NCBI GenBank assembly: GCA_040285855.1
Contig: JAUFOQ010000006.1
Location: 620,001-684,000, forward strand
Source of the DNA: Eukaryota sp. GEM-RC1
Lineage: Eukaryota
Direction: 5' to 3'
Length of the DNA stretch: 64,000 nucleotides
Part shown: positions 6,581 through 57,844 of the stretch, piece by piece
How the letters are laid out: every line of letters begins with the position of its first letter
How positions within the stretch are numbered: position 1 is the first letter of the stretch
The notes under the pieces: model-generated
What the model was told of the DNA's origin: nothing
What the model saw: only the letters and a program-made list of their open reading frames with translations
Database searches by the model: none
Program-made: the position numbers and the translations under genes

Positions 6581-6804
6581 TTTTTTAAAAAGGTATAGTT
6601 TTATTATAAATGTAATACAGTATATCAAACAACTAAAATTTGATATCATTAAAACAACACCCTTCGCTATCAAACCTTACAACAGCTTTGTCCTCATAAA
6701 AGGAACTCACTGCTAATAAAGCTTTGGAGATGATTAGGGGAACTGTTTTAAAAACAGTAAAAACGATCCGATTCAACCATAGCATATGATCAAAACGTTT
6801 GTTC

Positions 6805-7516: not shown

Positions 7517-7587
7517 GTTTGTTCATCCTATTCAATTACTGTAATTATAATTAAATTAATTTTTTCGCATCACTGACTAATACTCTC

Positions 7588-15957: not shown

Positions 15958-16136
15958 GTTTCAGATAATTCTAGTGCAAAACAGAAATGAGTGGAGGGAA
16001 ATTTAAAATGTACAATATAGAAACTCAATTAAAGATACAGGGTTGTACCATTGAACTTGAACGAAAACCAAAATATTAAAATACATACAAGGTTTTATCT
16101 ACAGTTAAAATAGTAAGGAAAAATATATATATAAAC

Positions 16137-34300: not shown

Positions 34301-36095
34301 GTTTTAAAACTTCTTGAGAAGTCAAAGCAGGGATATCACTAACGTCACCAATACAATCAAAAGATTGGTGACAATCGGTGAAATAGAACTACCGATCAAC
34401 AATCTTCTAAGATGAAACATCGCGTGTTCTGCTTCTGAAATTACTTCTAATCTTAATTGTTCAACTGAAATACTGAAATTATACCCCAAAATTGAATTTG
34501 ACAAAGAAGTGATTGGACTGTGACGTCCTGTAGAGCTCCACCATAGTGATCAGCTTCAAATAAATAGGAAAATTGTTCTGAAATTGATTGAACATCAGTA
34601 ATTAATTGAACAAATGAGAAAATACAAATAACAATAAGAATAATCAAGGCAATATGAACACTAACTCGAAGTTTCTCAGCACTGGAAGCATTTTCACTAG
34701 ACCTATCACTGCCTAAATAAAGAAGAATTGATTGGCCTTTTCTTCTTCTTTTAGACTTTCTTTTTTTGTTCCTGGCACTCGTGAATGATTTCCCAGTCAC
34801 TGATTGATCAACGCTTGATTGATCCCCAGCTGAGGATTGACGGTCAGAATCGGCAAGTTCCATTTGAGTGAGTAAGGAGTCTGCAAACTCATCGTCGAGT
34901 GTAATTTCCCTTACAAATTTGGAATAAGCTTCAAGAACTTCTTTATTACCAGGATGTTGACGAAGAAGCTTTGTAAAGTAAGATTCCGCTTCAGTTTTAC
35001 TTTGATAAAATTTTTCAGCAATTGATGGTAAATTGGTCAAAGTAATTTGAGATTGATCATCCACAAGTAATTGTTTCCAAAAAACGCTCAAAAAATCAAG
35101 ACAATCTTTGTGGAGATCAATGGCAATTTTTAACTGTCGTTGTAGAACAAGGAAAGAGCTAGAATCAAGAGATTGACCAGTTGATTGTTCTCTTCTTAGA
35201 TTGTCTGCCATCTTTTTGATTGGAAAAGAAAAAATCATAATTCAATCGGATATCAATTTCTAATTGAGTGACTTGATTGACAATCGAGAGTGATGCGATC
35301 GGATCCTTTCCATAACAGAGCTCAAAAATAGATTTACATAAGTAAACGTGAACTGAAGTTGGAAACTTTTCGATTGCAAAGTCAAAAAACGATCGATGAA
35401 ACGAAATATCTTGTTCTAAAACCGACCCTTTTTGATAGATTGGTCGAATATAGAGCTCAGATTGATACGGATCACTTAACAACCGATCAAAAACAGCAAC
35501 TCTACGTTCTTCACAAGACGTGAGATCACCACCTTCCTCTTCTGTTTCAGGAGGGCTCACAGGAGTTGTGAAACCAAACTTCCAAAATGAAGATTGACTA
35601 GGCAAAAGACCCAAGCTTCTAGGTAAAACAAAAAGTTTAAGTGTCAAATATTTTCGAAATATTGTAGCCACGACAGACCCAGCAACAAGGGGAACGACAT
35701 AAACAACAAAAGTTCCAAGCCAAAGATGAACATTAAATCCAATAATTTCAAATATAAACCAAATACATGAAATACTCAAATAACTTGTACAAAGGAAAGC
35801 CATTAATGTATTAGCTCGTATTCTAAAAAAAGGAGAATGTTTAACGAGAGTAAAAAGAAGAAAAACACCAGAAAGAGGAAAAGAAATGGGTAAAAACAAT
35901 GGGCAAATGATCAAACAAAGTCAACGAGATAGCAAGAAATACCTTGATCAAGAGCAGATAAATCAAAAATCTTCGATCAAGGGAGGCGAACAATCTTTTA
36001 GATGTAGGAAGAATCTCAGTAAACATGGAAGTTCTAATTAAAGAAGTAATAAAGATAATAGACCAAGAAAACAGAAATAATGCTTTAACAAACAC
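31316..36095 (-). CDS. TmcB/TmcC-like large multi-pass membrane protein (about five frameshifts; 5' end cut off by a retroelement)
   Basis: Colinear ORFs with many TM helices, a TPR-like YFTKLLRQHPGNKEVLEAYSKFVREI segment, and repeated LFLYVP/LLQMLP coiled-coil ends. Confidence 0.65.
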
Positions 36096-36099
36096 GTTT

Positions 36100-37320
36100 T
36101 GAGTAGACCAATTTTGTCCAAACTATTGGATAATTCTTGAAAATTTTAAGAACATTCCCAAGCCAGCATCCTAGAAAACGAAAAGCATCTTCAACATAAT
36201 TGATCAATAAATGGAATCTGAACTCCATTAATTAATAATTCTTGTGCAGATCTACCAATTAATAAACATTTGTCTGGGTTCAGAGATAAACCCAATGTTT
36301 CATAAATATCAGCCACTTCCACAGCGACTTTTTTTAACAATTCAAGGGGACCAATAATAGAAATATCTCCAGATCCATATAGCCAACTATCTTAAGGTCT
36401 GTGTATTTTTTTAAGATACACAAAAGCGAATCATGAATAGCCAAACAAAAGAAAAGAGGACCAAGAGGATCTCCTTGTTTAACACCAGACATAGATTTCA
36501 ATGAATATCAATCATAAATTAAATCGCTTGGTTTTCCATAAAATAATAACAGTAGGACGTCAACTCAGGAAAGTCTTTTCAATAGCAGCAAAAACAGATT
36601 TACGACTAACTGAATTATAGGCATTTTAAAAATCAAGATTAAAAATGAAATTATCATCATGTGAATTGAAGAACAAATCTGATGTTAAGGCACCAACAGA
36701 AGCCCCGTCAATTGTCTTAATTGCAAATTGAAATGGAGACAAAAAGCGACCCGCTTTATCGAACACTCGATTAAACACAATTGATGCGAATAAACGAGAA
36801 ATTGATTCTCCAACTGCAATTGGACGGATTCCATCAGGCTTAATTCCGTTACCTGGTTTTACTAAAGCAATAAGTCGAGCAGCAGTCAATTCAATTGGAG
36901 GAATAACTTTCAAACAAACCATCTGCTGAAAGTAATTTGCAAGATCTTAAGAAATTTCTGGAGCTGCCTTGCAAGCAGCTTTCAACAAATCAAATGAAAT
37001 GCCTGAAGGTCCAGCTGCTTTACCTTTAGGAAGTCTAGCAATAGCACTTGAAGCTTCAGTTGGGAAAATAGGATTATCAATCCAGAATTGACAAATTTGA
37101 GGTTTAACGCACAAAAACTCTTCTTTTGGATGCAATTTGACCCCTTTCTGAACCGTTTCAGAATTTGGAATAGCCATTGCTGAAGAAAAGAGGACTTAAC
37201 TCCAGAACCATAACGACCACGAAGACATAATTTCCGGACCACCTTACTGTTGGAAAATGATTTAGCTCATTCAGAACTTGATTTCCTTAACATCATTTGC
37301 AAAAATAGGATTGCACATAC
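36100..37320 (-). mobile_element. Degenerate non-LTR (CRE-like) reverse transcriptase
   Basis: GKAAGPSG, ARLIALVKP, IRPIAVGE, QFAI, FNLDF..AYNSVSR and GVKQGDPLGP motifs across broken frames. Confidence 0.85.
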
Positions 37321-37714
37321 TACACACTCTTCACAACAATTAGTCTGGATCAGACTAATTATGAATATTCACATTTGAACAAAAATCCCAAACAAAAATA
37401 TTTTCATTGTAGGAAGGTTAGCTTATTCGGTGCCGAATAAAAAGTACATGTATATATCTTTTCATTGATCATCAAATCTTGCTATTTCTTCGTAAATGTT
37501 ATGTTGTACATCAGGATCGTTGTTTGCACCTTAAATAGAGGTATAAGACCAAAGAAATTCAGAAACAGGACTGATCAGCTATCAAATTGCCTCTTCAAAA
37601 TTGATTAGTGACCGAATTGTCTTTCAAGGAAGTGCGAACAATGTATGACATGGATTGTTGGCAATTCAACAACAGTCTAGGAAGAAAAATGAAAGAAATG
37701 GCTGTATGACTCAT

Positions 37715-39451: not shown

Positions 39452-39529
39452 TGTTGGTCTTTGGTACCATGTAAAGAGATAAAGTGAATTTATTATACAA
39501 TTAAGTCCTGATGAGTCATGACACTAACA
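39452..39529 (-). repeat. 3' LTR (78 bp)
   Basis: Identical to 45619-45696. Confidence 0.95.
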
Positions 39530-42500
39530 TTACTTCTTCCCCTTTTTCGAGGACCTAGTCCTCTTAGCAGGTGGAGTAGTGAGAATGACGGAATTAGGAG
39601 TGTTACTAGAGTTTGGGTTACGATTACGACTACTTCTAGGTTTACCTTTAGGTTTAGATTTGGGTTTGACGTGAGGGTTTAATTTAATAAAACTTGAGTA
39701 AGCCTTAGTATTCTTTACCAGACTCAGGGGTTCCTCAGTAGTATCACCATCGAACCATACGACGGAACATATGGGACCCGTAGGAGAATCACGTTGATCG
39801 AGGATCTCAGTGATGACCATTTCTTCAGAGTCAAAAGATGCCACTGCTTTGTGGAACTCGTCGGAGGAGGGTTTGTCAGAAAGGTACTTGGTGCATAAAT
39901 GAATGCTAGAGCGGAAGCGATGTCCAGTGACAAAGTTCTGCAGTTCAAGCGAGCTTTTGGAAGGTATATCAATGACGAGGTACGGTCCTTCTTGTTTGCC
40001 ATGTAGCTTCTTAGCTGCTTTGTTACTTCGTAGTACTAAGTCACCGATAGCAAATAGCGAGGGGGTATCGACTGTAGTAATGGAAGATTTGATAGATGAT
40101 TGGGTAGTTTCTGCTTCTTCCCGTTTTTTCCAAAATTCTCGTTAATTTTGATTGGTAATCAGCTAGAAATGAATCTTCTGAGATCTGGTTCTGAGTGAGG
40201 CAAGATATGATTTTACTCGGATCACTACCAGGGCTGGTGTCAGATCCAAACATCAATTCGTACGGTGTAAAGCCGGTTACTCTACTCTTCGTAGTGTTTA
40301 CCAGCAGTTGTACTAATGGGATGTTTTTACTCCAGTTGTCATAGTCATTGAAGTCTATGAGCATCTTTCGTAAAGCTTGTAGGATGTCTCTGTGTCGTCG
40401 TTCAACTAAACCGTTGCTAGGAGAGTAACTAGGAATAGATTTATTAGTTGTGATGTCAAATTGATTGCAGACGTCAGTTAAGACGTGATTAGCAAATTCT
40501 TTGCCATTGTCACTATGAATGATATCTGGAATGCCGAAGATGGCGCAAACGTTACACACCAACGAATATGCTGTTTCGTGATCATTCAGTTTCTTTAGTG
40601 GGCATAGGATTGTGAATCTGGTGAAGGAATCTATGAACACTAGTAAGTAAATGTTTCCCGATGTGTCAGTGGGAAGTGGTCCTATAGTGTCGACGTTCAT
40701 CTTTGCAAATGGTTTGTCGGACCACAAATTACCCGAAGATTTGATAGTTGTTTTGACAAGGGGAGCTGTCTTTTGACAAGCTGGACATTGCCTGCAGTGA
40801 GTTTTCATGTCGTTGATCATGCTGGGCCAGAAGTAGTCACTAGATTTTGGCCGATCAATGCTATCTTTAATGCTGGGGTGACCTGCATGTGGAAAACCGT
40901 GTAAGTGGTTCAAAGTGGTTTTCACCAAGGCACTTGGTATCAATATCTTGTTGTGGCTATTCATGTATAGCTGGAACTCTTCATTAAACCAAGTAGACGG
41001 ATGTTGGAATAATGGATCGTTATTTTTGATGGCTTCTACTTGTGTAGAGCGTACTTTCGAAAGCCAAGCATCGAGTAACTTCGATTTGTTGATGAGAGCA
41101 TCGTCAATCATGTTGATCCTCTGTTGATAAAGTTTGATATTCTGTATCCTCATCAGTAGGACATAGGCTATCGGTTATAGAGAACAAATGCTCGGGACAG
41201 TTTGTGACTATGTTGTTTATAGACCCTGTTGGTACGTCTTTGATAACGTTGCGTGACAACATGTCAGCCCAATGGTTGTCTTCGCCACTAGTGTGGACTA
41301 TAGTGAATAAGTATTCGCTGAGAATAGGGATCCATCTTTTGACCATCCTATTCTTTTCAGGTGCTGAGATTAAGTAAGCAAGGTTCTTATGATCTGTGAA
41401 GATCGTTAGTTCTCTGCTGATAAGGTATGATGACAGTTGTGATTCCGTTGAAATCAGGAGAATGGCGTACAATTCCTTTTGGATCGTGGCCCAGTTAGTC
41501 TGTGAGTAGTTTGCTGTAGAATGCTAGTGGTTCTACTTTGCGTTCGTTCAGTGGAGTTCCCTAAGGTGAGTGAGGGGGTGCATTCTAGCCAGACGACACC
41601 ACCTACGGCGATATCGCTGGCGTCTGCGCTAATCAGTATGCGTCTGTCTTTGTCTGGTTGACATAGTGGCATGTGATTCATTATCCTCTTCTTGATTTCA
41701 TCAAAATTTAATTGAGTTTGAGGTGTCCAGTGAACTGTTCGTGCATTGTTCTTTACTAAAGCTATTATGGGAGCTAGTAGGTCAGAAGCATCTGCTATGA
41801 AATCTTTGATGTAGTTGATTGAGCCGACGAAACTTCGAACTTCTTTGATGGTGGTCGGTGTTGGTATGTTTACCAAAGCTTCTACACGTTCCGAATCTAT
41901 TCGACGAGTGTTGTCGATGTATTCGCAACCTTAGATAATTATAGGATGATTCTTTGTTATGAACTTGCACTTGTGTAAGCCATGGTTGACTCTATAAAGT
42001 TGAGCTCTCTCAAGAACGAATTTTATTCTAAATAAGTATTCATCGAAAGTCTTAGCGACTGTGATGATGTCATCGATGTAAATGAATATACCTTCGTGGT
42101 CGAAAATATCCATCATCAAGTTTTGAAAGATTGCTGGTACGTTCTTTTGGCCAAAACAAGCTCGTTTAAATCGAATGGCTAGGCCGTGGATGACTAGAGT
42201 TGTCTTGTCACGTTCGTGATCCGCAGATTCAGTTGCCAAAATGCTTTTGGCAGGTTGAGAGTGGCTATGTAATTAGTTTCACTTAGAAATTCTTGTATGT
42301 CTGCGATTCTCGGTAGATTCGGTTCGACAGTCTTAGTAAGTTCATTGATTCCTCCAGTACCACTGAAGTCACCCGTAAGTCTAGGCTTACGATGATCGGG
42401 GTAGACCACAAGTACTACTGGGGAGCTGAATTTTCCGTTGGGATTAGTATACTCAGCGTATCCCAAACGGACTAGTTCATGAAAAGTTTCTTCGGCTATC

Positions 42501-45500
42501 CTTTGTTTGACAGGATTAAGCCTCCGAGGTTTTCGTTTCACCGTGGACTCTTCATCGTGGAAGTCAATTGTCATCGGTGAACAATCGATGCCATCTTTGT
42601 GTGGAACGGAATCGAAGATAGTTGAGAACTCGCTAAGTAGGTTCAGTAAACGATTGGTTCTGTCATCGTCATCTAATTTGATTGAACAGCCGGAATCATA
42701 AACAAATTTATTGAAATCTGTATTGTCTATAATAGAAGAGCTATTGGGCATAGATATGTTGGAGTCGAACTCAGACTCGTCGTTGCTATGAGCTAACATA
42801 GTTTGTTGAACTGGGATGATTAGTCCCTCTTCAGTCAGTAAACCTAACTGCTTCATGAGATCAATACCTAACAAATATTTGTTGGATCCAGGGATGCTAG
42901 GTAGAGTCTTCGTCACAGATGTTAGGTGTGACACCTTACTGAACTTGAAGGTCAAGATCCCGTGGGCGCTACCCAGTGAGTGAGATCTGACGTTGTTTGC
43001 TGATGTGAAGTGAACCTTCTTGTTGATGAAAGTCATTGAACATCTATCGACCAGGTCTTGTGTGATGACGGACATTGATGCTCCACTGTCCCATAAACCC
43101 TGAATCGAAACACCATTGATGGTCAGACTGCAACTGAGGAATGGTGGTGGATCCTGGTGATCGATAATGCTGAATATCGAATTCAGGCTTAGTGAGTTCG
43201 TACCACTCGAATTACTGATGTTGTGGAGTGGATTTGCGTATGGATTATGTGAATTCGACGATGATGTATTGTTGTGAATATGGTTTATATGTTGAACGTT
43301 ATACTTACTATATTTATTGTGTTTACGTGAACTATTACTACGAGAGGGAGGTTTCTTTGCCTCAGATCGTGGAAGGCGTTGATCAGCGGGAAGTTCACTT
43401 CTACGGCAGTCAGGGTGATTACAGTGAATGATCTTATGATCAAAAAAATCACAGAAACTGCATTTGTTGGGGTCTTTCTCAGTTGGGTCTTTCTTCTCGG
43501 ATCGGTTCTTCTTTTTGAAGGAAGGGGATGGAGAAGGAGCAACTCTTTGATCAGTTGATCAAAGTTTGTGACCGGCGGAAGTAGAGAAAGATTTGGTGGC
43601 TGATCTCTGCATAGCTTTGGGTAGGTCGTTCCATGAGTCTTTGTCTCGGTGGACTAGAATTTCAACGTCTTTCTATTCACGTTGAACATGTGCAGGGGGA
43701 GTGTTCCCATCTCTTACACCACGTGTTGTAGTGTTCGAGGGCGACGGCGAAGAACGTGTGGAGGTCCTTGGAGTCTTTGTACTTCTGGCCAGAGGGTTAG
43801 GTAAACGGAGGCGATACCGACATTCGTGAGTAGGGCTTTGATGATTACTCTTTCTTCGAGACTCGAGTAAACATTGGCCTTTGAAGTGCGCATCGGTGTA
43901 CTGCGATTTAGGATTTTGTCGAAACGTCTAATAAAAGTCCAGCCATCGGTCTTCATGGTCTCTAATGTTCCAGTTCATAACTACTTCATTGATCTTGTTC
44001 CTTGCTGTGATGTATTCTCGGAACTGTGTTCTGAGAATGATTTCAATAAAGAGGTTGCGGTGATCTTTCGTTGTTTTGCCTAGGTAGGACAATTGTTGTT
44101 GAACTCGGAAGTCTATCAAACGGGGAACCCATCTCGTGTCAGCGTCGCTGGCGGCAATACGGCCAATGTCGAAGAAAAAAGTAGCTTGACCCAAAGGTTT
44201 GTCGGTCGGTTGCTTGTAATCCGGTTGAGGTAAGCAAAAGCTCATGTAGTCTCCAATCCAATAAATCATGACGTCAGGGTCGTCAAGAGTTTTAAGGACG
44301 GGAGGAGTAATTGATTTGTTTAGCTCACTGTTGATGTCCGAAGGTAGTCTTTCATTGAATTTCAGTACCGAGTATGGTGTCTGAATTGGAGGAGGATTAT
44401 CCGACTGAGAGGGAGTGTGAGGCTGAGCTTCTGGAGATACTGAGAGGGCTCTTACCCTTTGACGGATGTTGAGGTCAGCATGGTCTCGGGGTCCAAAAGG
44501 CAATAGAGCTGGGTCTCTGGGCATTGAGTGTGGAGAAATTCCACCTGTACAATTCTCCGATATTCCACCGGGACTATAAGGAGCGTCTTCAACCAAAGGT
44601 GGAACAGTGTCCGAAGGGTTGGAGTTTATCGCAGGGATGCTGTAAGACGGAACTTCTACATCTGCGTAACTGCTGAGATCGTCTATCTGTCTTTCAATGT
44701 CTTCTACTTGTTCTTTTGAAAACGGTGTTTTCAGCAGATTGTAGGCTTGGGGTGTGGTCACTAGAGAATTTACACGGTTCTTGTCCATAATAAATCCTAA
44801 GAGTTTCCCCCTGACTGTGCAGATAGTAGCAATCTCTGGGTAGAGATTGATTCTGTTGTTGAAATACCTTTGGTAGACTCTCTTGAGCTGTTTAGCCGGT
44901 TTGAGGAGAAAACTGTCTTTCTCGTATTCAAGGTAAGTCTCACCGTTGAGACGGGCTTGTGTTCTGAACTCTTGCCATTGTACGGCGTCGAAGTTCTGAT
45001 ACATTCTGCGTTCCGCTTCATGAATTTCTTTAGCCGAGGAACTCGTGGTTAACAAACCTGGGAGATTGGGATCTGTTCCAGGCATGGTAAATCCTAGTAC
45101 CGTAGTAGGAGGCTTTGGAGCCATTTTAGGTTTGTGGGAGTTCCGTGGAATTGGCTTGGGTAACGGCGAAATTGAAGGGCTGGAGGCAGGGTTTGTCTAA
45201 GGTGTGACGGTGACAGGAGACGTTTTCTTAGGAGGAGTATTTCTATCCGCCTTTCCTGAAGAGGGAGGGTATTCGTTCTCGACGGGTGGGTCGGTGACCA
45301 CCGGGGAGTATACAACTTGGTGAATGGTTTCCTCGGGAGGATGGTCATCTTCGAAAGAGGAGTTAGCAGGAGATTCGAGACCCTCGTCGAACTCCACCGT
45401 GTCGTCCCAAGGTTTCCCGTCAGGTCCCAATTCGGTGTTTGGGGGAGGGTTATCCTTGGATGCCAGGTCGGAACTGGGCTTAGTAGTACCTAGGTCGGAA

Positions 45501-45618
45501 CTAGGGTTATGAGTCTTGCCTAGGTCGGAACTAGGGCTTGGGTTAGTGTTGTTTCCAGGAGTGAAATGCTCCGGAGTACATACGCATTGAGACTCTTTAC
45601 AGAGGCCACAATAATTAT

Positions 45619-45696
45619 TGTTGGTCTTTGGTACCATGTAAAGAGATAAAGTGAATTTATTATACAATTAAGTCCTGATGAGTCATGACACTAACA
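45619..45696 (-). repeat. 5' LTR (78 bp)
   Basis: Identical to 39452-39529. Confidence 0.95.
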
Positions 45697-46146: not shown

Positions 46147-48306
46147 TCAGCACCAGATTCGATCATTTACTTCGCTTCTCATAACAGATTGAGTTGTAGG
46201 ACTAATAACGTTACAATGAAAAGTGATTTCAGTAAGTGTAGAATTGGATTTTAGAGCTTCACTCAAGGCAATAGCACCATTATCCCCTATTGAATTTGAC
46301 TCTAGATTAATACAAGAGAGAGTCGTATTAACTTTGAACGATTCGCTCAAGGCAATGGTACCATTATCTGCTATAGAATTCTTCTCAAGATTAATATCTG
46401 AAATACTAGTATTAACTTTGAACGCTTCGCTCAAGGCAACAGCACCTCTATCACCAATACAATTGTGATTTAGATTAATCTCTGATATTTTAGTGTTCAC
46501 CTTGAACGCTTCGCTCAATGCAATGGCACCAACATCTCCAATAGAATTGTTCCCAAGATTAACTCTAGCAATTGCGGTGTTAACTTTAAACGCTTCGCTC
46601 AATGCAACGGCACCATTATCACCCATAGAATTATTCTCAAGAATAAGGTGAATTAGAGTAGAATTGAGCTTCAACATGTCAGCTAATCTCAAAACTCCTT
46701 CCACTCCAATTAAATTATTCAAAAGATTAATCCTAATAATTGTAGAATTAACAGTGAGTGCACTTGCTAATGCTGAGGCACCTTTTTTACCAATAGAGTT
46801 ATTCTGTAGGTCGAGAAAAGTAAGTGTAGAGTTAACTTTCAGTGCATTTGCAAATGCTACGGCTCCTTCTACACCAATAGAATTGGACTGCAAATCAATT
46901 TCAATAACTGAAGAATTAATTTTCAAAGCTTCTGCTAATGCTATCGCTCCTTGCGCTCCAATAGAGTTTGACTGGAGATAGATCACATCAACAGAAACAT
47001 TAACCTTCAACGCATCAGCTAACGAAACTGCACCTTCAGTACCAATAGAGGTACGTGTTAGGTCTAAAACACCAATGGTAGAATTCGATTTCAAGGCATT
47101 TGACACAGCCAGAGCACCCTCAACTCCAATAGAGTTATAGGAAATGTTAAGCTCCATCAGCGTTGAATTTGACTCTAACGCTTTAAACAATGCCACCGCA
47201 CCTTCAGCTTCAATTGAGTTAGACATTAGATTGATCTTAGTCAGGGATTCATTTACTGATAAAGCTTCTGCAAATGCTACTGCACCTGCACTTTCAATAG
47301 AACTGTTGAACAAACTAATATCAGTAATAGTTTCATTATCTTTCAACGCTTCAGCTAAAGCCACTGCTCCTTCAACGCCAATAAAGTTATACCCTAGATT
47401 GATCTTCTTAAGAGTAGAATTCCCACTCAAAGCTTCCGCTAAAGCCACTGCTCCTGCATTTGTTATAGCGTTAGCACCAAGATCAAGCTCGGTAAGACCA
47501 GTGTTGACTTTCAGTGCACCTGCTAATACAATTGTGCCTGTGTTTCCAATAGAATTTCCCAAAAGCTCAAGACAACCAACACTTGTATTGACTTTCAAAG
47601 CCTCAGCCAATGCCGTTGCTCCTTCAGTATCTATATCGTTAGTGGGAAGGCGGAGTTCTTTAAGAGTGATATTGTTCTTGAGATGTCTGCAAAAGGACTT
47701 AAAGGACGGATTGGAGGGAATCTGGACATAGAGGTGTTTAAGGTGTGGTAGATAATATGTGGAAGAGTTGCTTAGAAATTCAAAGCTCAGATAAGCTGAT
47801 TTTAATCTTAATCCTGTGATGACGTGAGAATAATTGAGAAAGTCCGTGACTGCAAAGGAATCATGTGCATCCAGGAATACAGAATGAGGTTGAGTGTCAA
47901 AGAGGGAAGCAATGGAACAAAGTCGAGGAAGATCTTTAGAAACAACTGGAAATGTACTTGTCTGGAAAAACAGTTTTACTGTCAATAAAGCGCATTCAAA
48001 GAAGGACTGGCTTACAAAGGCAACAATGTTGAAGAAGGAGCGTAGTTGATTTCGAAACTGACGAAAAGGTCTTTGAGGATCCCAGAAATTCTCTTTAAGA
48101 GATGATTCTGAAAGAGCTCTCAGTAGATGGGAATCGATCAACACTAGTAAGGATCGCTGAAAATGGATAGGATTGCAGATAGGTTCATCATTCAAGGTGT
48201 TTAATGGTGAAACTGTACGAATTGCGATGTTGGATGGCTGCTCTGTTTCTAAACTGCATTTGACTGTGTTTGCATCATTCAAAAGCTTTGAATGTTGTGG
48301 ATCCAT
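46147..48306 (-). CDS. RI-like leucine-rich repeat protein (NLRC3-like)
   Basis: ~18 28-aa repeats NSIGxxGAxALAEALKVNxxLxxLxL; intact 719-aa ORF. Confidence 0.9.
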   Translation of the reverse strand: MDPQHSKLLNDANTVKCSLETEQPSNIAIRTVSPLNTLNDEPICNPIHFQRSLLVLIDSHLLRALSESSLKENFWDPQRPFRQFRNQLRSFFNIVAFVSQSFFECALLTVKLFFQTSTFPVVSKDLPRLCSIASLFDTQPHSVFLDAHDSFAVTDFLNYSHVITGLRLKSAYLSFEFLSNSSTYYLPHLKHLYVQIPSNPSFKSFCRHLKNNITLKELRLPTNDIDTEGATALAEALKVNTSVGCLELLGNSIGNTGTIVLAGALKVNTGLTELDLGANAITNAGAVALAEALSGNSTLKKINLGYNFIGVEGAVALAEALKDNETITDISLFNSSIESAGAVAFAEALSVNESLTKINLMSNSIEAEGAVALFKALESNSTLMELNISYNSIGVEGALAVSNALKSNSTIGVLDLTRTSIGTEGAVSLADALKVNVSVDVIYLQSNSIGAQGAIALAEALKINSSVIEIDLQSNSIGVEGAVAFANALKVNSTLTFLDLQNNSIGKKGASALASALTVNSTIIRINLLNNLIGVEGVLRLADMLKLNSTLIHLILENNSMGDNGAVALSEAFKVNTAIARVNLGNNSIGDVGAIALSEAFKVNTKISEINLNHNCIGDRGAVALSEAFKVNTSISDINLEKNSIADNGTIALSESFKVNTTLSCINLESNSIGDNGAIALSEALKSNSTLTEITFHCNVISPTTQSVMRSEVNDRIWC

Positions 48307-48314
48307 TATCGGTA

Positions 48315-48476
48315 ACTGAATTTCCCCTTACTACTTAGTAGTAATCTGTGCTTTTCATATAAAATGAAAACCCCAGAATTTCTTTTATAGATTAATCCAG
48401 ACTGAATTTCCCCAATGAATCCTAAGATTCAATAATTCTACAGATTCACTGTAGTACATAAAGGCTATGACTATGA
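48315..48476 (-). ncRNA. Candidate omegaRNA-like structured region: two hairpin-hairpin-GGGGAAATTCAGT modules
   Basis: Immediately 3' of the Fanzor stop; 13-nt direct repeat at 48315-48327 and 48401-48413; four short hairpins. Confidence 0.4.
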
Positions 48477-50600
48477 CTATGACAAATAACTGGGTCTAAT
48501 TCCTAGACCCCGCTCCAAATGATGCTCCACAATTGTCTTGATGTTGATACATGCTAACTTGTTACGATTCCAAACCTTGGCGCTACCATGACATTCTTCT
48601 CTACATTCTTGGGACTTGCATCTCAACAAAGCGTGACACTTTACTAGAGGTTTCTTCTCTCTTTTCGATGGTCTTGGATTACTGATTTCTTTGAACACTT
48701 TGACTGGCCTCCAACAAGTAGGACACTTTGAAGACGTGTAACTCTCATCTACCAGAACAATATTGTAACCATTTCTCTTAAAGAAGTTTCTCCAACCCAC
48801 ACCTCTACTTGATCGGAGGTGTTTTAGGTTCTGCGTCTTATTAACATTGTCACCAAACATCAATACACAGCCATCTTTATTCCATCCTTTTGCAGTCATA
48901 TTTTTCAACAACTTACTTTCTGTTTTTTGAATATGGACATATCTTTGCATTTTTGAATGCGCCATATCATCAAACAGTAGTAGTCAAATGTTGATTCAAT
49001 AACTGTCAGTTTGGAACTCACATAGTCATAGAAGGTTTCATAAACGGTTGACTTCGAGTTTTCTTTGGATAATGTTGACTCTTCTTCTTCAACTGTCTTT
49101 CCATCTAGGAGAATAAATTCTTTTTTCTTTCCCCTTCTAAACTTTTGATGAACCCTTGACCATCTGGACCATTCTGTTTCTGTCAATCTTAGCCACTCAT
49201 ATTCTTTGTTTCTTCTTTCTCGGGCTTTTTGTTCAGGAAATGGCCTATTCACTTTCTCTGAACAAAAATAGAGTAAATCTGTTTTTCCAGGTTCAATAAA
49301 AACTTTTGTGTTCAATGAAAACTCTTCAACAACATAGTCTTGAACATATTCTTGTTTACTGGAGAACTTTGCACTGTCTGGTTTAAAGGACATTCCAACA
49401 CAGTCCTCTCTAGTAAGTTCAACACAAGCAGAGAAACCATCAGTTTTAATGGTATTGTTATACTTATAACCTTTCTTTAAAAATGGACGATTGAAGTTGA
49501 AAAAATGTGACCAGAATAAGTTTTGTTCAGCAGGAGACATGTGTTCAATTTCAACTTTTGTGTTCCACTCAGACATTTTCTTCTTGACATTCACTTGTTT
49601 TGTTGACAAAGTGGAACGTAATATTCCCCAAAGACCTTGTGTGTCTATTTCAAAGAAACCTGGTGTGACGTGACGAACAATAGGAATTACATTGTAAGCA
49701 CTTGCTCCTTCACTTTCAAGATAGTTATTTATTTGAATCGCAGATTTAATAAAGGATTGAGGATGTTCACGAACTGATGTTAGTAGAGATTTAACGACTT
49801 TCTTTTTATAAACACCATTAGCATTTTGAACATCAATTGACGGTGGGAAGAGAACATCAATAAAATATTTATCTCAAAAACAATCCTTCAACATAGTCGT
49901 TAGTTGCCCACAGAAGTTTAATTTTACCTGCAATGTTCAAACTTCTATTACTGTCGTCTTGAAGAATTTCTGTATTACATCTTTGAATAAATTGTTTTAT
50001 TTCTGCAGGGGTTTTTGGAATGTCATTTCTGTTACCTTCAAGAAAGACATTTTTAACTTGTCTAAGTCTCCAACAAAAAACAGACAGTTCTTTTTTTGAC
50101 ATTTTTTCTTCTTGATCAGTCTTTTGAAAATAAACATTAATAAATTTGTCAATTTATTGAGCATATCGCATTTAAATATTGGTGTCCAGATTCTCTTTAA
50201 TAGTTTCACCAACCATTGCCATAAGTCGTGAGGAATGACAGGCTGGAAAGAGTGGAATTCCACCATTGTTGAGCATTACTTGTTTGTATTGATTTATAAC
50301 AAATGTTCTCAAGTGTTCATTAAATGTAGGAGGTCGTCCTTGATTACATAATTCAATCTCATGATGTTCAGCAGAGATGTTTCTTAACAGAGTTTGAACA
50401 TGTTCAACTTCCTTCCTTGTATTTAAAGGTAATTTTTCACCATTCTTATCCATGTGTAATAAAAACAGCTTCAAACAATAGGAAGTGTGCATTCTAAGTT
50501 TGTGAACCAATTGAGCATAATAATCGAGTAATAACGTTAATCCAAAATGTTTGACAATAGACTTTAGTGTAGTTTTATGTGTTACAAAAGTTGGACGAAC
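48477..50600 (-). CDS. Fanzor (eukaryotic TnpB homologue, Fanzor1-like) domain of the polyprotein; RuvC-I D>E and RuvC-III D>N
   Basis: KTTLKSI...HTSYCLKLFLLH; NVIP....PGFFEIDT; IKTDGFS; IEPGKTDL; MFGD; VLVDESYTSSKCPTC; HALLRC....C; WNRNKLACINI. Two in-frame TAAs near 50150-50175 and two frameshifts. Confidence 0.88.
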
Positions 50601-50639
50601 GATTTTATTTGATTGAAACAATAAAAACAACTTCAATGC

Positions 50640-51345
50640 TAGTACACTGTCTTTGAAGCAATAGTTCCCAACTTCTTGAGGTCTTTCAACAACACAATCA
50701 ATAGGCAATAAGTCGTGAAATTCGTCATGAAGACGTCCTTTAGATTCGTTTAATAAAAACCAACTTAATGTTCTTAAAGACTTGGAACATTTTGAAACAA
50801 TAAATTGCTTAGCATAGACGTACGAATCACATACAATTCTACCAGCCCATTCAGAACAAGCATTTTGCCATAGATGAGATAGATGAGATTTAGTTGTTTC
50901 ATCTAGCATTGGTTCTGGAAAGTTGACTCCAAGTGTAACAATCCCGTTGCCTAAAACAACTACATCGAAGTCAGTTATGTTAAATCCAGTTAAAACTGAG
51001 GGATTTTTATCATTCAAATAGTTGACAAAAACTCTATTAACTGTTTTTCGTTTTCAAAAAATCGAAGGTTGCTACAATCAGGTGGCAGTTCAACATCAGA
51101 TTCATGAGTCAACTCTGAAGTTGCAACAAAATTGTCTTGAAGGTAAAACTGATCTTTTATAAAATGACCAAACACTCCAGAAATCATGAAAACTTGTTGG
51201 TTTTGAATCCACACTTCTTTTCTGCATCACTTTTCATTTTGAGAGATTTATTCTCGTTCTTTCTTTGATCATCCAACTCCTCTGTAAGTGTCTCTGCAGG
51301 GATTTGATCAATTTCTCTAGTTTCAATATCAAAAGACAATATTGA
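50640..51345 (-). CDS. Family-B DNA polymerase-type DEDDy 3'-5' exonuclease domain, in frame with the Fanzor N-terminus
   Basis: ExoI SFDIET, ExoII NPSVLTGFNITDFD and ExoIII YCFKDS; ExoII, ExoIII and the Fanzor start lie in one unbroken ORF (50172-51017). Confidence 0.82.
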
Positions 51346-51701
51346 ACAATGATTAGAGTTATTTGGTAATTGGGAATGTTTGAGAAACTCAATCATTGGT
51401 TTTTTAGGAGGTTTCAAACTCTTTATCGCATTTGATACTCCACTTGCTTTTGGTTTGGTGGTTTTCCTTTTGGCAACTGTTGACTTTCTATTTCCTGCTG
51501 CTGTTGTTGTTTCAGTGGTGTCGGATGATTCAATTGTTTCTTTTTCTGTTGTATCAGGTTTCTCACAAGCCGCAACATTTATCTTTGGAGTTGGTAAATT
51601 TATTTCTGGAAGATCTGTCAACTCTGGACGACTAAAGTTATGATAACTTTCTTGAAATAATTCTTTAGCTTCTTCCAGCGCTTGTTCAATCATTTTTAAC
51701 T

Positions 51702-53496
51702 TCAAAAGACGTTTCTTTTCCGGTTAGATAAATTTCCAGGTAAACTTTTGGGAAAGTTTTGATAAGTGAGCTTTGACACCGTTTCCTTGTAACTACTATC
51801 ATCTAACATTGTTTCAGGAGTTGAACTTTCAGATTGACACTGTACAGGTTGATTAACAGGTGATTCAATCTCATCAGAATAAAACTCACCTTGGGCATGA
51901 GTACATACATATTGTCGGTATTCATCAGGGTGATCTTCATCAGGGTGAGTAGTAACGATTTGAGACAGTATTTGTTTTCTCATTTCTAATGCATTATAAG
52001 CAACACAATTAGAGACTTTAGACAGAATTTCGAAAAGATTTGTTGATGTTGATTCACACTCGACAAATTTATTCATATACATTAGAATAAATGGACCACA
52101 GTCATTAAGTGTTTGGACTTGTTGAACTGGTACTCTGGCTATATAGCTGAAATTTGCCATATCAAACAGGAATTGCTGTAATTGTGAAATGACATTGTCA
52201 ATACGTGATAAAGTGTTAGAAAACTGAGAATGTTGATCTTCTGTACACATTGAGTCAATAGAGAAGTATTGTTTATTTTGAATATCACAAATTAACAGTG
52301 ACCAGTGAGTGGCTGTTGTATCAAAGAGACCGTCATGTATTGGAATAAACAAGAAACGTTTCTTACACTTTTTAGTGTGTCTTTTACTGGATTTTTCCAT
52401 TGATAATTGAACCTCTCTAAATTGTTCAAACATTATGTTATACTGTGAAAGATTGATTGCATCTTGAATGTTGGCTACTTCAAAGAACTCGCATCGATTA
52501 CTCTTTTCAACAATGTACTGACCAACAAAGTCAATGACAGAATCATGAAGCAGCACATTAGGTTTCAGAGTGTCAATTTGATCAGATCTTAGTAAAATTG
52601 GTCTAGGACGAGATTGTGTTAGAATTCCACGATGTTGATGTTGTATAATTTGATATTTTTGAGAAAATTTCTTCTTTTTTGGAGGATATTTTCTAGATTT
52701 ACGAGTTCTTCGTGTACGATTTGAGTCTATAAGTTGATGGGGAGTAGTCAATGGCACTTGTCGAGTTTCATCAGGAGATGAAATTACTGTTGGGGTTGAA
52801 TGTGCTTGAGTGCTGTTTGAAAAGCACTCATTGACAATACTTACAGCAAGTATAGCAAAAGGCGTAGGATGAGTAGTTCCTATTAGATTTAGAACTTGTT
52901 TTCTCATTTCAAAAGCATCATAATCGACATAACCTTGGACTTGAGACATAGTTTCCTGGAAATTGTCAGATGATGATGCCAAATGAACAAATCTTTGCAT
53001 ATACATTAAGATATATGGTCCACAGTCGTTGGGAGTTTGCTGTTTAATAACTGGGAGCTTTCCTAAATTGGAAAAATTACCAAAATCTCGCAAATATACC
53101 TGTAAAGTACTGACAACTTGATCATTGTGAGTTGAAAGGTCAAATGAAAGTTGAATTGAACTGTCAGTGTACATTGGATCAATTAAAAAAAATGACGTAC
53201 TATCAATGTCACAAACAAGTAGAGTCCAATGAGTTGCTGTACCACGAAAGACACCATCGTTTATTGGAATAAATAAAAACCTTTTCCCAGTCTCTCGCAT
53301 TGAATTTTTGAACATTTAGAAATTCAAGAGCTAATGTGTCAAAATCGCCATAACTCACTGCAGCATGAAGATTCCCGATACAGAAAAACTGGCATAACTC
53401 ACTATTCTCGGTGATGTACTCACCATAAAAGTCAACAACAGAATCATCGAGCCATACGGAGGGCTTCAATGTAGTGATTCCTTCCTGAGTGACAAA
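51702..53496 (-). CDS. Tandem Ulp1/SENP-like (C48) cysteine protease domains of the polyprotein
   Basis: WLDDSVVDFY...FIPIN...HWTLLVCD...QQTPNDCGPY, and LLHDSVIDFV...FIPIH...HWSLLICD...QTLNDCGPF; both His-Asp-Cys triads intact. Confidence 0.88.
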
Positions 53497-53739
53497 AGGA
53501 CCAGGGTTTGATTCTATGTGTCCATCGATAGTCAAATCACAGAGAAATTGTGATGACTGGAGACTTGATTGTAGAAAAACCATACAAGTGCTGACTTTAT
53601 GATCGTAAAAACAAAACAACGACTGAGACGAACTCAAGACTTTCCTTAACAACAACAAAAGAAGAAACAACATAGAATAATTCGAGAATCCATGAGGAGA
53701 AAAAGGAACGCCTCGAGAAAATATGTTCTCTTGGCACAT
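53497..53739 (-). other. Leader peptide MCQENIFSRGV-hydrophobic-2A-like motif (DLTIDGHIESNPG|P)
   Basis: Matches D(V/I)ExNPGP except His for Asp; lies directly before the first Ulp1 domain. Confidence 0.7.
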
Positions 53740-53899
53740 CCTTAAACACGTGATCGTGTTTGGTTGATGAAAAGAAGAAGGAGAGAGATCTCAGGACACA
53801 AGTATCCATAGACATCTCTCCAAGCAATTGGACTCAAATATAAATTCAGACTATTTATAGATGTTGTCTACAGTGACATCTTGACATACTGAAACTGAC

Positions 53900-54475: not shown

Positions 54476-56987
54476 TATATCTTTACTCTGTTGACTCTAG
54501 TAAAATAGCGTCCACACTTATCATAGAACTCTAGAAAAAGTTCCTGGACCTGTGCTCTGTATGGAGTCAAAACAGCCACTGTCACTTTTCTATCCAACAA
54601 TTGCTCCATCTGTGATTTGTGATTTTTTTACAAAATTAGTAACTTGTTCCACAATGGCATTACATTCAGCCTTATTCAATAGACTCCCTGAAAGTTCGGC
54701 AGAAGACTTGTGATGAGAGCCAATAGTACTCACAAATTGTCTCCCTGGCAAATGTGAAGTGACCTTTGTAGGGTTCAATGGTACTAATTTTGTCATCATA
54801 AAATTGGGTATCAGAAAAATTCCACAATTCTGAAAATTGTCGATATTGTGGATTAAGCTGAGTATACCTGTTATTGTCTATCATTGCAGAGGTCAGTCTT
54901 TCCATAAGAGAAATCGACAATTTTGAATTCTTACTGATTACCACTGGTGGTAATTGTTGGGGATCTCCAACAATCACGACTGAAGTTTCGTCGCTTTTTA
55001 AAGCAGATACAATTTCTGGTTCAGTTGCTTGAGCAGCTTCATCTATGATAGGGACACTTGTAGGAAAAATCTTTTCTTGTCTGTCTGTATCCACTTGCAA
55101 GAGCTAATGTAGTAAAAACAACATCAAATTCATTCTTAATCTAACTCAAGTCGAGCTTTTCTTCTTTTCATCAGCAGTGATAGCACTGACAGATTCAACC
55201 GTTTCAGCATCAGGATTCAAGGCTTGTCCAAAAAATTCATCAACTGATTGTGGAACACGAGATAGATTGTGACCGATAGCGTTTTTTCTTTGTTTCTCAT
55301 TTTCAATTGCATCTCTGTCTTTCTTTTCTTCAATTCTTTTTGGCAGTAGAAATTCTTGAATTGATGGAGGCGGATCTCGATTCTGAGCACTGATACGGAG
55401 TAGCTTGTTTCTATCAATGTTGGGTTCATTTGACAGCTTCTCAAGAATGACTTCAACGGCATTATTTGAAGGTGCCGCAACCCATACTGGACGTTTATCA
55501 GCGATTAATGACATAATTAGTTTCACAATTGTCATTGTTTTACCAGTACCAGATCCACCATGTATGAAATACAATCCTGGTCTAGAAACGTGTAACTCTC
55601 TAATTCTTCCAACTGAGTGTCTTTGTGAATTATTCAAATTTTTGAAAATTTCTGGTGAACCTGGTGTAAGATTCGCTTCACATGGAGAAATTGGATCTGA
55701 TGATCCAGCAATGTTCAATTGATATTGAAACCGAGGAGGAACTTTCAAATCTAACATGGCTGAAATTTGACGTAAGAAATTGCTGCCAGAACCAACTTTA
55801 ACTGGAACTTCAAACGTTTAAATTTAAATTCAATAATGCAAAAACAAGTTATCTGAAGACCCAACATTTTCACAAGGACGTGCTTTTGAAAACTCTGCTG
55901 CAAAAGATATTTGAACTAATACTTCATACATTGGCAGATTTAGTTCATGAATTGTATTCAAAAAAGTTTCAAAACTACTGATATTGTCGCGAAATGATGG
56001 ATTTTTAACTCTATCAGCCAAAATAAGACGAATTTTGGTCAAATATCCATGTTTGTGTTGCCGTGAAGGTTGTAAAGAGTATTCCATGAAGCATTCCTGT
56101 TTATCAATGTTGTTCAGACCAAGACAACAGTTTGCAACCGTTTCATCTAAGAGTTTATTGATCCACTCAACTGAATATTCATTTGGAATTGCAGTGTGAT
56201 AAAGCTCACTAATGAATTCCTTCTTTTGATCGTCAGGCAATTGAATTTGGTGTCTAATATTTTCAGAATTTTCCTTGACAATAGCCCAAAATTTGAACAT
56301 ATATGGCACATATAAACTATTCACAGATGGTTTTTTGTCTCTGAGAGGGGCTTGTTGAGAAGATGGTTCAATCTGAAAGAAATTTTGGCCAAAAATATAA
56401 GAAGAACCAGAATCAATGTTTTTCGAGGCAAAAACATCGATAGCAATTCTAATCTATCAGTTTCAAGAAAATCGTTGAGTTGGTTTTCAGACCAAAAAGG
56501 TACTACTTTGCGCTGACTCATTCGATCTTTTTGCAGTAAGGGATTAGGTGTTTCAGATAGGAAAGGTCTGTTATGGTCGGCGAGATCAGGCAAGTCTTGT
56601 GGTGGGGCACTAACTTCATATTCTGCTGTTGGTGGTTCATTCTTGTGAACCTCTTTAATCTGATTAGTGGCCCAGGTTTTTCCTTCTGATACTGATTTAA
56701 CCCTGTTATGTCTAAGCTTTCCTATAACATAGTCAGCTTTAAACGATGTTCGATTATGGTTTTTGTACCAATATGTTTTATTTTCGACATCTACTAAGAA
56801 AAAAAAGAACAATATCAGGTTTGCGGGGACCAGGGTTGGCTTCGATATCACCATGCTGAGTAAGATCATGTGCAAAAGGTTGTGCTGATGAAAGAAGAGA
56901 AAAAATGAAGGAGATGGAAGGAAAGATAAAGAAGTTTGGGAAAAGCCAAGACACAACGCCTCGAGAAAATATGTTCTCTTGGCATTG
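54476..56987 (-). pseudogene. 2A-leader plus Upf1/DNA2-like SF1B helicase gene, frameshifted, C-terminal motifs V/VI not evident
   Basis: Canonical 2A DLTQHGDIEANPG|P (56826-56870); LNNSQ; GGSGTGKT; AAPSNNAV; IIDEAAQATE; VGDPQQLPP; QYR; N.AE; VLTPYRAQ. Confidence 0.82.
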
Positions 56988-57239
56988 GTCTGAAGAACTG
57001 ATGTTCTTTGTGAGACTAAAAAGGGCAAGTGGAGTAGTAGCATATGATGAAATGAAATGGCGCTTTTTTATGGTGGAGTACCATTTGCATAATTTCGAGT
57101 GTTGATTTCTTCCATCAATCAACAACTAAGAAGACGTTTCTATGTAGCGATTTTTGATTAATCATGTCAGTAATGATCATGATATTGTTGAGTTTTATGG
57201 ATATTTTGAGAAAATAGTTATGTTTCTCTTATATATATA

Positions 57240-57844
57240 GTAGGTGTCCCAATACAAGCAAAGTTCCAATACAAGCAAGGCCCCAATACAAGCAAGTAAA
57301 AGTGTTTGCTTGTATTATTCTATTGCATTCGGGATGTTGAGCGGGTTATACTTCAATACAAAGTTTGTTAAGGTGAATTACGACGTATGGAGCTGTGGAC
57401 GAACTTCATAGTGTCCAATTAAGTGCCTAAATGTTGTTGCGGATTTTTACCCGAAGAACTCCATGGAGTTATTGTATTGTTTGGCATTTATAAAATCAGA
57501 AGCACAAAATGGCGTTTTAAAACCAAATTATGGAACATTAGGCAATAGAATCCCTGTCATTAGAACTTTGCTCCTATAAGACAAATATTGTGTACTTGTA
57601 GAACAAATTAAAATACTGTTATTAAAGCATGTGTCATAGTGTGTTGTTATAAATTTTTGTTCTATTTAGAATACAGTGTACAAGTAGCATTACGAATTAG
57701 AGTATGTGATCCTGTAATATATTGAAAATAAAGGTGTCGTCGCTTCACCGTATAATAGGGTCCCAATACATGCAAGGTCCCAATACAAGCAAGAAAATGT
57801 GTTTGCTTGTATAAGATATAAAGTTGCTTGTATTGGGACACCTA
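57240..57844. mobile_element. MITE with 22-bp TIRs (Tc1/mariner-pogo-like, in TA-rich context)
   Basis: GTAGGTGTCCCAATACAAGCAA ... TTGCTTGTATTGGGACACCTAC; internal CCAATACAAGCAA repeats. Confidence 0.85.

What the first reader, a model, noticed from the sequence alone, without database searches (positions are those of the whole stretch)
48310..48476. Duplicated hairpin module after the Fanzor stop: possible tandem omegaRNA or mini guide array
Seen, on the minus strand: hairpin CTACAG/CTGTAG, hairpin TGAATC/GATTCA, GGGGAAATTCAGT, a 26-nt unique stretch (CTGGATTAATCTATAAAAGAAATTCT), GGGG, hairpin TTTTCAT/ATGAAAA, hairpin TTACTACT/AGTAGTAA, GGGGAAATTCAGT, then TACCGATA and the ATG of the host LRR gene. 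Stem sequences differ between the two modules but the layout is conserved. Known: TnpB/Fanzor omegaRNAs derive from the element 3' end, and the guide is the adjacent flank. Inference: two scaffolds each followed by a guide, the second possibly matching the start of the LRR gene. I saw no target for the 26-mer elsewhere in this window.
Basis: partly seen in the sequence, partly recalled or inferred. Interest (0 to 1): 0.75.

Follow-up and report, generated by a model that had tools for sequence, protein, structure and literature searches.

The report
Two stacked Fanzor guide-RNA ends
Behind a broken gene for an RNA-guided DNA cutter (Fanzor) in a single-celled eukaryote lie two unrelated hairpin pairs, each followed by the same 13 bases; they are likely the guide-RNA ends of two different jumping elements, stacked by a cut-and-repair accident and aimed at the same flank, rather than an array of different guides.

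Summary
In detail: two hairpin pairs, each followed by the identical 13-mer, 86 nt apart, right behind a Fanzor1 stop (0 of 5000 shuffles). This gene copy is dead (two nonsense codons, frameshifts, RuvC-I D to E) and belongs to a multicopy protist family in which Fanzor1 is fused to a PolB-type exonuclease behind 2A-like and Ulp1 modules. The two modules share layout but no sequence apart from the 13-mer. In solved Fanzor1 RNAs and in 73 of 74 giant-virus loci the scaffold is paired to its last bases and the guide follows at once; here the last stems end 2 and 0 nt before the 13-mer. So the 13-mer is more likely the guide/flank, duplicated around a 73-nt right-end fragment of another family (a repair scar like Chlamydomonas CRe-1), than a repeat framing a 26-nt spacer (0.38). 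Rivals: two ends sharing a conserved terminus (0.25), one long four-stem RNA (0.2), a fixed two-guide cassette (0.1). No other copy's DNA could be fetched; aligning the copies' 3' ends would decide.

The parts
48477..51720 (-). Broken exonuclease-Fanzor1 coding region (PolB-type DEDD exonuclease, then Fanzor1 with RuvC and zinc finger), in several frames; two in-frame TAA codons between 50140 and 50190, RuvC-I D read as E (FIEPGK, 49292), frame change at WRIQK|MQRY (~48950); stop TAG 48479-48477
48492..48510 (-). 7-bp hairpin GGGTCTA/TAGACCC in the last codons (P 0.99); role unknown
48465..48482 (-). TCATAG three times (includes the stop), likely slippage that lengthens this copy by up to 12 nt
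   Evidence: slippage inferred
48414..48456 (-). Module 1: stem CTACAG/CTGTAG, linker AATTAT, stem TGAATC/GATTCA, TT; likely the omegaRNA scaffold and right end of the Fanzor element; alternative single long stem 48452-48413
48401..48413 (-). 13-mer GGGGAAATTCAGT, copy 1; likely duplicated flank/guide (rival: conserved element terminus)
48328..48400 (-). 73-nt unit with no sequence likeness to module 1: CTGGATT (can pair with AATTCAG), A-rich stretch, extended stem 48377-48345 around TTTTCAT/ATGAAAA, stem TTACTAC/GTAGTAA; likely the 3' piece of another Fanzor-type element
   Evidence: origin inferred
48315..48327 (-). 13-mer, copy 2; likely the original flank and first 13 nt of the guide
46147..48306 (-). 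Host LRR gene (LRR_6 repeats), ATG 8 nt after copy 2
51702..53739 (-). Upstream part of the same polyprotein unit: CQENIFSRGV leader, hydrophobic stretch, 2A-like motif DGHIESNPGP (53508), two Ulp1 (C48) protease domains
53842..53852 (-). AGT+CTGAATTT: 8-nt inverted match to the 13-mer core, 110 nt before the unit's ATG; weak candidate left end under the shared-terminus rival
   Evidence: post hoc
54590..57125 (-). Second unit with the same 30-nt leader, a 2A-like motif (56837), an unassigned region and a broken Upf1/DNA2-like SF1 helicase; same element or a sister element, not settled

Best explanation
The region likely holds the omegaRNA-type right ends of two different Fanzor1 elements, with the 13-mer as host flank (the first 13 nt of the guide) duplicated on both sides of a 73-nt end fragment, a scar that would be left when an RNA-guided cut is repaired by copying from an occupied site and the copying stops early. 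Shown: two hairpin pairs, an exact 13-nt direct repeat, no other likeness between the modules, a dead Fanzor1 gene in front. Inferred: (1) each module is a scaffold (SL1, short linker, SL2) whose guide starts at or within 2 nt of the first G of the 13-mer; (2) an element with end 2 once sat at this flank, its nuclease cut the unoccupied or differently occupied allele about 13-17 nt into the guide-matching sequence, repair copied the guide match and 73 nt of the end (from the DNA donor, or from the omegaRNA itself) and rejoined, giving repeat-fragment-repeat; (3) the large element's end abuts the first repeat. Both scaffolds would then point at the same sequence, so this is a by-product of mobility, not a store of different guides; any RNA would have to be loaded by an intact sibling protein, since this copy cannot make one.
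For: Guide position: in the omegaRNA tables of Xu 2024 and Saito 2023, read by eye, the last stem of Spu, Pp and Gt Fz1 closes within about 0-5 nt of the variable part; Spu/Pp have SL1 (7 bp) plus one further stem. In giant-virus Fz1 loci the terminus is paired to within 4 nt in 73 of 74. In the window, ends placed before the 13-mers score 10.0-10.2 and 9.2-9.4 paired bases of the last 13 (viral median 10.4), the end after copy 1 only 1.5-4.6, below the viral minimum 5.9. First stem lies 43 nt after the RP codon (31 without the two extra TCATAG) against a viral median of 33 (42 of 54 loci with such a hairpin). Modules are unrelated in sequence (1994 of 2000 shuffles align as well or better) and likeness stops sharply on both sides of the 13-mer. 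13 nt fits native guides of 14-15 nt and Fz1 cuts at 14-21 and the 7-19-bp duplications around 5'-truncated, 3'-intact CRe-1/2/3 Fanzor1 copies (Bao and Jurka). No left-end inverted copy of the 13-mer within 3 mismatches inside 48.5-58 kb.
Against: It needs two unrelated ends at the same base of one flank. The scaffolds would be 41-50 nt, shorter than any published one (PpFz1 75 nt with guide). Viral Fz1 subfamilies show the rival pattern, diverged stems with one conserved terminal motif (74 of 76 loci), and 1 of 74 (L079) has a gene-less element with a second right end just behind. The 7 nt after copy 1 can pair with the 13-mer, which 785 of 63,988 window positions do (1.2%), and close the 86-nt unit with P 0.96 when folded alone; an end after copy 2 also passes the pairing test (7.9-8.6 with 100-130 nt). 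RP-to-end distances in viruses (138-195 nt) fit the second module, not the first. No second copy, empty site, parent of the 73 nt or RNA was seen. The homing-scar reading of CRe-type duplications is my inference; Bao and Jurka and Craig do not state it.
Confidence: 0.38

Rival explanations
1. The 13-mer is the conserved right terminus of a transposon group. The large element ends at copy 1, and an 85-bp gene-less ('ghost') element of a sister family, bounded by CTGGATT...AATTCAG, has landed directly behind it. Two scaffolds with different flanks exist, but by accident at this locus only.
For: Viral Fz1 subfamilies keep a ~22-nt terminal motif while inner hairpins change; L079 has a gene-less element with the same termini 27 nt behind its end; the junction is palindromic (1.2% of positions); AGTCTG[AG]ATT occurs only twice in the window, at this junction and at 53852, 110 nt before the polyprotein ATG; ghost elements are known for SpuFz1.
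Against: Copy 1 is predicted unpaired; the left matches are 6 of 8 and 8 of 13 nt and were found after the fact; no full left inverted repeat; SL1 of the small unit would sit inside a junction, unlike the solved RNAs; a 13 of 13 match between families with no other likeness is more than the more distant viral subfamilies keep (1-6 mismatches in 22 nt).
Confidence: 0.25
2. Both modules are one long omegaRNA of about 155 nt fixed in this family: SL1, SL2, then a junction closed by CTGGATT/AATTCAG with two inner stems; the element ends at copy 2 and has one guide (TTACCGATAATGGAT). Copy 1 is an inner repeat of the end, as in transposons with inner and outer direct repeats.
For: GtFz1 has a 150-nt RNA with four stem-loops and, like this family, N at the third catalytic position; viral scaffolds are SL1, linker, three-way junction; RP-to-end 170-183 nt falls in the viral range 138-195.
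Against: The closing stem has P 0.19 in the full region because copy 1 competes; the nearest solved relatives (Spu, Pp) have 75-90-nt RNAs; the near-equal spacing of the two modules (41 and 43 nt from first stem to 13-mer) is unexplained; a covariance model of the viral ends does not hit.
Confidence: 0.2
3. A fixed, functional two-guide cassette: every copy carries scaffold 1 with a built-in guide and scaffold 2 with the flank guide, processed at the 13-mer.
For: Exact repeat with parallel layout; omegaRNA-like arrays exist for prokaryotic TnpB; the fused exonuclease could trim RNA or DNA ends (inference).
Against: Only two units; the supposed spacer is partly paired and has no target in the window; 0 of 74 viral loci show an exact second end and the one near case is a separate element; the gene here is dead.
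Confidence: 0.1

Closest known systems
SpuFz1 (Spu-1, with ghost loci) and PpFz1 Fanzor1-omegaRNA systems (PMC10432273, PMC11423790; PDB 8gkh, 9cf0)
   Same: Protein family and fold (profile E 7.7e-32 and 2.5e-27; model of relative P0002 TM 0.81 by target length); stem-linker-stem layout right behind the stop; gene-less guide-RNA ends exist.
   Different: Two unrelated ends in tandem; shorter modules; no terminal inverted repeat found; N-terminal exonuclease, Ulp1 and 2A-like motifs; third catalytic residue N; this copy is broken.
CRe-1/2/3 Fanzor1-Helitron2 copies of Chlamydomonas (Bao and Jurka 2013, PMC3627910)
   Same: 5'-truncated, 3'-intact end fragments flanked by 7-19-bp duplications; here 73 nt between 13-nt repeats.
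   Different: There the left repeat follows a T-rich target motif in host DNA; here it follows another element's end (CATT). No Rep/HUH protein or Helitron2 termini were shown here.
GtFz1 (Guillardia theta)
   Same: N at RuvC-III; a four-stem, ~150-nt RNA would match the long-RNA rival.
   Different: Weaker protein match (E 5e-4); no internal direct repeat described in the sections read.
Giant-virus Fanzor1 elements
   Same: SL1 about 33 nt after the RP codon; paired terminus; one locus with a gene-less element right behind.
   Different: Their ends are 22-nt inverted repeats closing a three-way junction; their covariance model does not match the window.
omegaRNA-like arrays of RpoE-linked TnpB (Altae-Tran 2023, PMC10691335)
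   Same: More than one scaffold-like unit in tandem.
   Different: Those are long (>60 bp) sequence repeats with sharp guide boundaries in prokaryotes; here only 13 nt repeat and the scaffolds are unrelated.

Membership tests
Fanzor1 protein | Homology and fold of Fz1 (WED, REC, RuvC, TNB) | tested here: met
   (on intact relatives that align to the window at 50-94%)
Fanzor1 protein | RuvC-II E six residues before the zinc finger, C4 finger | tested here: met
   VDESYTSSKCPTC ... C..C in the window; definition
Fanzor1 protein | Catalytic triad D-E-D/N in one open frame | tested here: not met
   This copy: E for D at RuvC-I, two nonsense codons, frameshifts. Relatives keep D-E-N (34 of 35 with the motif have N)
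Fanzor1 omegaRNA | 7-bp SL1 plus at least one further stem at the element's 3' end | tested here: met
   6-7-bp first stems and 6-7-bp second stems in both modules; module 1 has a competing fold
Fanzor1 omegaRNA | Conserved scaffold with a sharp boundary to a variable 14-15-nt guide across copies | not testable with these tools
   no genome held; no related DNA found
Fanzor1 omegaRNA | Expressed as a small RNA, bound by the protein, TAM-dependent cleavage | not testable with these tools
   needs small RNA-seq, pull-down and TAM screen
omegaRNA / CRISPR-like guide array | Repeated scaffold or repeat sequence with distinct free spacers of regular length | tested here: not met
   scaffolds unrelated; one 13-nt repeat, two units; 'spacer' partly paired
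omegaRNA / CRISPR-like guide array | Spacer matches a target next to a TAM | tested here: inconclusive
   no match better than 3 of 15 or 8 of 26 mismatches in the 64-kb window; the rest of the genome could not be searched
TIR (cut-and-paste) Fanzor element | Left inverted copy of the right terminus and a fixed TSD | tested here: inconclusive
   no copy within 3 mismatches inside the element's span; only an 8-nt core at 53849
Helitron2-Fanzor (CRe type) | RepHel transposase or asymmetric terminal repeats with 5' and 3' hairpins | tested here: inconclusive
   helicase is Upf1/DNA2-like, no Rep domain by Pfam; a 9-nt inverted match near 53870 scores no better than the other comparisons
Known RNA families (Rfam) | Match at gathering score | tested here: not met
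   best relevant: IS605-orfB-I 14.1 bits against 94.2, E 1.4

The most novel reading that the evidence does not exclude
Every copy of this exonuclease-fused Fanzor1 family ends in two sequence-unrelated scaffolds joined through a 13-nt repeat, giving a eukaryotic RNA-guided nuclease a built-in second guide: a first eukaryotic step from a single omegaRNA to an array, possibly grown by copying a guide RNA back into the site it cut.
Probability: 0.12. Interest if true: 0.85.

Novelty: new variant of a known kind. Interest (0 to 1): 0.5.

Why it matters
What Fanzors do in their own genomes is open: homing is argued by analogy with TnpB (Kojima 2026, passages). If the leading reading is right, repeat-fragment-repeat scars whose repeat equals the guide are a readable record of cutting and aborted repair in a eukaryote, and they can be counted genome-wide in this multicopy family and in CRe-1. 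The modules would also be the smallest natural Fz1 scaffolds (41-50 nt), useful for editing if they work. Independently of the 3' end, the family itself is unusual: Fanzor1 fused to a PolB-type exonuclease behind 2A-like and Ulp1 modules, with D-E-N, in relatives labelled as three related protists; I did not find it in print (passages of four Fanzor papers). If copies simply end before the 13-mer or after it, the tandem is a one-off and of modest interest.

Tried and rejected
No whole genome is held. Sequencing runs: none was listed; this is no evidence on expression. Scans for related DNA found nothing in metagenome contigs (2 scans; the first used a poor pattern spanning the frameshift), viral contigs (3 scans) and prokaryotic genomes. 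Earlier notes: none for this genome, sequence or relatives. Homologue search with the LRR N-terminus to place the host junction: no hit; the in-window paralogue starts ~46 codons further in, which does not place the junction. Exact look-ups to test whether helicase and Fanzor units travel together: 3 of 10 found, each a single-member cluster, so no test. Atlas search of the unassigned ORF: no usable hit. Rfam and a covariance model of 23 viral ends: no match at the modules on the right strand. Rejected: simple tandem duplication of one module (no likeness outside the 13-mer); chance; Helitron2 asymmetric repeats (match no better than background); tRNA-primer or polypurine tract of the LTR element (it ends 2.6 kb away). 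Errors of mine not used: three helix probabilities at the end had wrong coordinates (redone); the 'one long stem' energy was out of register. Dropped rows: 4 of 80 viral loci had no stop in reach, 2 of 76 lacked the motif; many loci are near-duplicates (53-64 distinct, by test). The exonuclease part of the model is low-confidence (pLDDT mostly under 60), so its fold rests on Pfam only.

Full report
Observation. The 13-mer occurs exactly twice in the window, 86 nt apart. Of 5000 dinucleotide shuffles of the 170 nt between stop and ATG, none had four perfect hairpins of 6 bp or more, two tandem pairs, or a 13-nt direct repeat, and 2 of the 6 tandem pairs on that strand of the whole window are these. 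The feature is real. Its overall folding energy is unremarkable (z -1.46), module 1 has a competing single stem in longer RNA contexts, and Rfam has nothing.

The gene. The upstream frames align to a multicopy family of predicted proteins whose source labels are Eukaryota sp. GEM-RC1, TZLM3-RCL and TZLM1-RC; I take these labels to be free-living metamonads from their likeness to names in PMC11316075 (passages). P0028 equals the window's translation over two stretches and is not an independent copy. A profile of relatives hits SpuFz1 and PpFz1 (E 7.7e-32, 2.5e-27) and a model of P0002 matches their structures: this is Fanzor1. In 9 of the 16 proteins scanned, a PolB-type exonuclease domain above the Pfam cut-off lies in the same predicted chain as the Fanzor C-terminus (gene models may hide introns); 2A-like motifs and Ulp1 domains precede it. 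The third catalytic position is N in 34 of 35 labelled relatives with the motif, against 79 D and 3 N among 142 further hits (60 without the motif); N is compatible with activity in GtFz1 (Xu 2024, passages). The window copy is dead: two nonsense codons, E for D at RuvC-I, several frame changes.

Where do the scaffolds end? No other copy's DNA could be obtained, so I used published RNAs and a baseline. In the tables of Xu 2024 (supplement S3) and Saito 2023 (supplement 5, part 1 of 2), read by eye, Fz1 RNAs are SL1, a short linker and a last stem that closes within a few bases of the variable tail; section 5 of Xu 2024 says SL1 has seven pairs and Spu and Pp have one further stem; Kojima 2026 (passages) adds that the 3' TSD lies in the scaffold and there is no pseudoknot. 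I fetched 80 giant-virus Fz1 loci: 74 of the 76 with a stop share a ~22-nt terminus after which copies diverge, paired to within 4 nt in 73 of 74. By the same measure the window's ends before each 13-mer score 10.0-10.2 and 9.2-9.4 of 13; the end after copy 1 scores 1.5-4.6, under the viral minimum of 5.9; the end after copy 2 scores 7.9-8.6 when the whole 86-nt unit is included and 1.5 when it is not. The first stem sits where viral SL1 does relative to the RP codon (43 nt, or 31 without two extra TCATAG, against a median of 33). The modules share nothing but the 13-mer.

Leading reading (0.38). Each module is a small scaffold and the 13-mer is the start of the guide, that is host flank, duplicated around a 73-nt end of another family. 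Native Fz1 guides are 14-15 nt and cuts fall 14-21 nt from the TAM (Saito 2023, passages). Bao and Jurka (parts 1-4 of 7) describe 5'-truncated, 3'-intact Fanzor1 copies between 7-19-bp duplications, and Craig (passages) suggests tentatively that Fanzor cutting is involved. My inference is that a cut in the guide-matching sequence, repaired by copying from the occupied site or from the RNA and stopped early, leaves repeat-fragment-repeat. The four bases before copy 1 are CATT, which fits the ATN TAM listed for PpFz1; this is a lead only. The cost is that two unrelated ends must meet at one base, and the scaffolds would be shorter than any published.

Rivals. A shared terminus with a ghost behind it (0.25) has real support: viral subfamilies keep their terminus while stems change, L079 carries a gene-less element 27 nt behind its end, the junction here is a palindrome seen at 1.2% of positions, and AGTCTG[AG]ATT recurs once, 110 nt before the polyprotein start. 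One long four-stem RNA ending at copy 2 (0.2) fits GtFz1 and the viral RP-to-end distances. The first two readings agree that the tandem is an accident at this locus (together about 0.6).

Novelty. Fanzor1 RNAs, ghosts and truncated copies with duplications are known; omegaRNA-like arrays are known for prokaryotic TnpB (PMC10691335, passages). Word searches within Jiang 2023 and Yoon 2023 found no 'array', 'tandem' or 'exonuclease', and library searches (listings and abstract starts only) showed no stacked Fanzor ends, no exonuclease-fused Fanzor and no Fanzor from this lineage. Subscription papers, Repbase, figure content and the large supplements I did not open (Saito supplements other than 5; Xu supplemental figures, too large) could hold such cases. 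2A-like motifs in mobile elements are known from non-LTR retrotransposons (PMC3708506, listing only). Inner and outer direct repeats at transposon ends, and inverted templated insertions at repair junctions, are recalled, not from a call.

Verdict. A real, non-random pair of Fanzor1-type RNA ends behind a dead gene of an unusual family; most likely a by-product of mobility with one shared guide rather than an array; decidable in an hour with the assembly. New variant of a known kind, interest 0.5.

Noticed in passing
window 48477-53739 (-); P0002, P0004, P0189, P0197: Multicopy Fanzor1 family fused to a PolB-type DEDD exonuclease, behind 2A-like motifs and Ulp1 proteases, with N at RuvC-III and no transposase seen; several subfamilies in three related protist labels. 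Not found in print in my searches; probably more novel than the 3' end itself.
   Followed up: partly
window ~48953 (-), ATTCAAAAATGC: The same frame change at WRIQK|MQRY ends 6 of 6 gene models of this subfamily that reach it (one is this locus), while 30 other models read through: programmed -1 shift or slippage on the A run, a shared old mutation, or a systematic long-read error.
   Followed up: partly
window 54590-57125 (-): Second unit sharing an exact 30-nt leader (53707-53736 / 56955-56984) and a 2A-like motif, with a broken Upf1/DNA2-like helicase and an unassigned ORF; a hydrophobic stretch precedes each 2A motif.
   Followed up: partly
window 57241-57844: TA-flanked ~600-bp element with ~20-bp inverted termini and internal repeats (MITE-like) at the far end of the unit.
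   Followed up: no
window 39452-45696 (-): Ty3/gypsy-like LTR element with gag, protease, RT and integrase in pieces; the two LTRs share only 78 identical nt by blastn, so one looks truncated.
   Followed up: no
window 20484-24776 (+) and 11974-15960 (-): 1430-codon frame with ~34 copies of a 78-nt repeat, and a 2.15-kb inverted duplication at 93% with a related broken copy.
   Followed up: no
window ~35165-37400 (-): Broken non-LTR-like reverse transcriptase region (RPIAVGE motif seen), a possible source of reverse transcriptase in trans.
   Followed up: no
L079:3656-3860: Giant-virus Fanzor1 right end followed after 27 nt by a ~155-bp gene-less element with the same termini.
   Followed up: partly
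L001-L080, last codons to right end: Giant-virus Fz1 omegaRNA ends fold as SL1, an A-rich linker and a three-way junction closed by the terminal repeat; SL1 shows many paired changes across subfamilies.
   Followed up: partly
window 6800-7520: MITE-like stretch with long inverted arms directly upstream of a second, frameshifted LRR gene (7589 onward).
   Followed up: no
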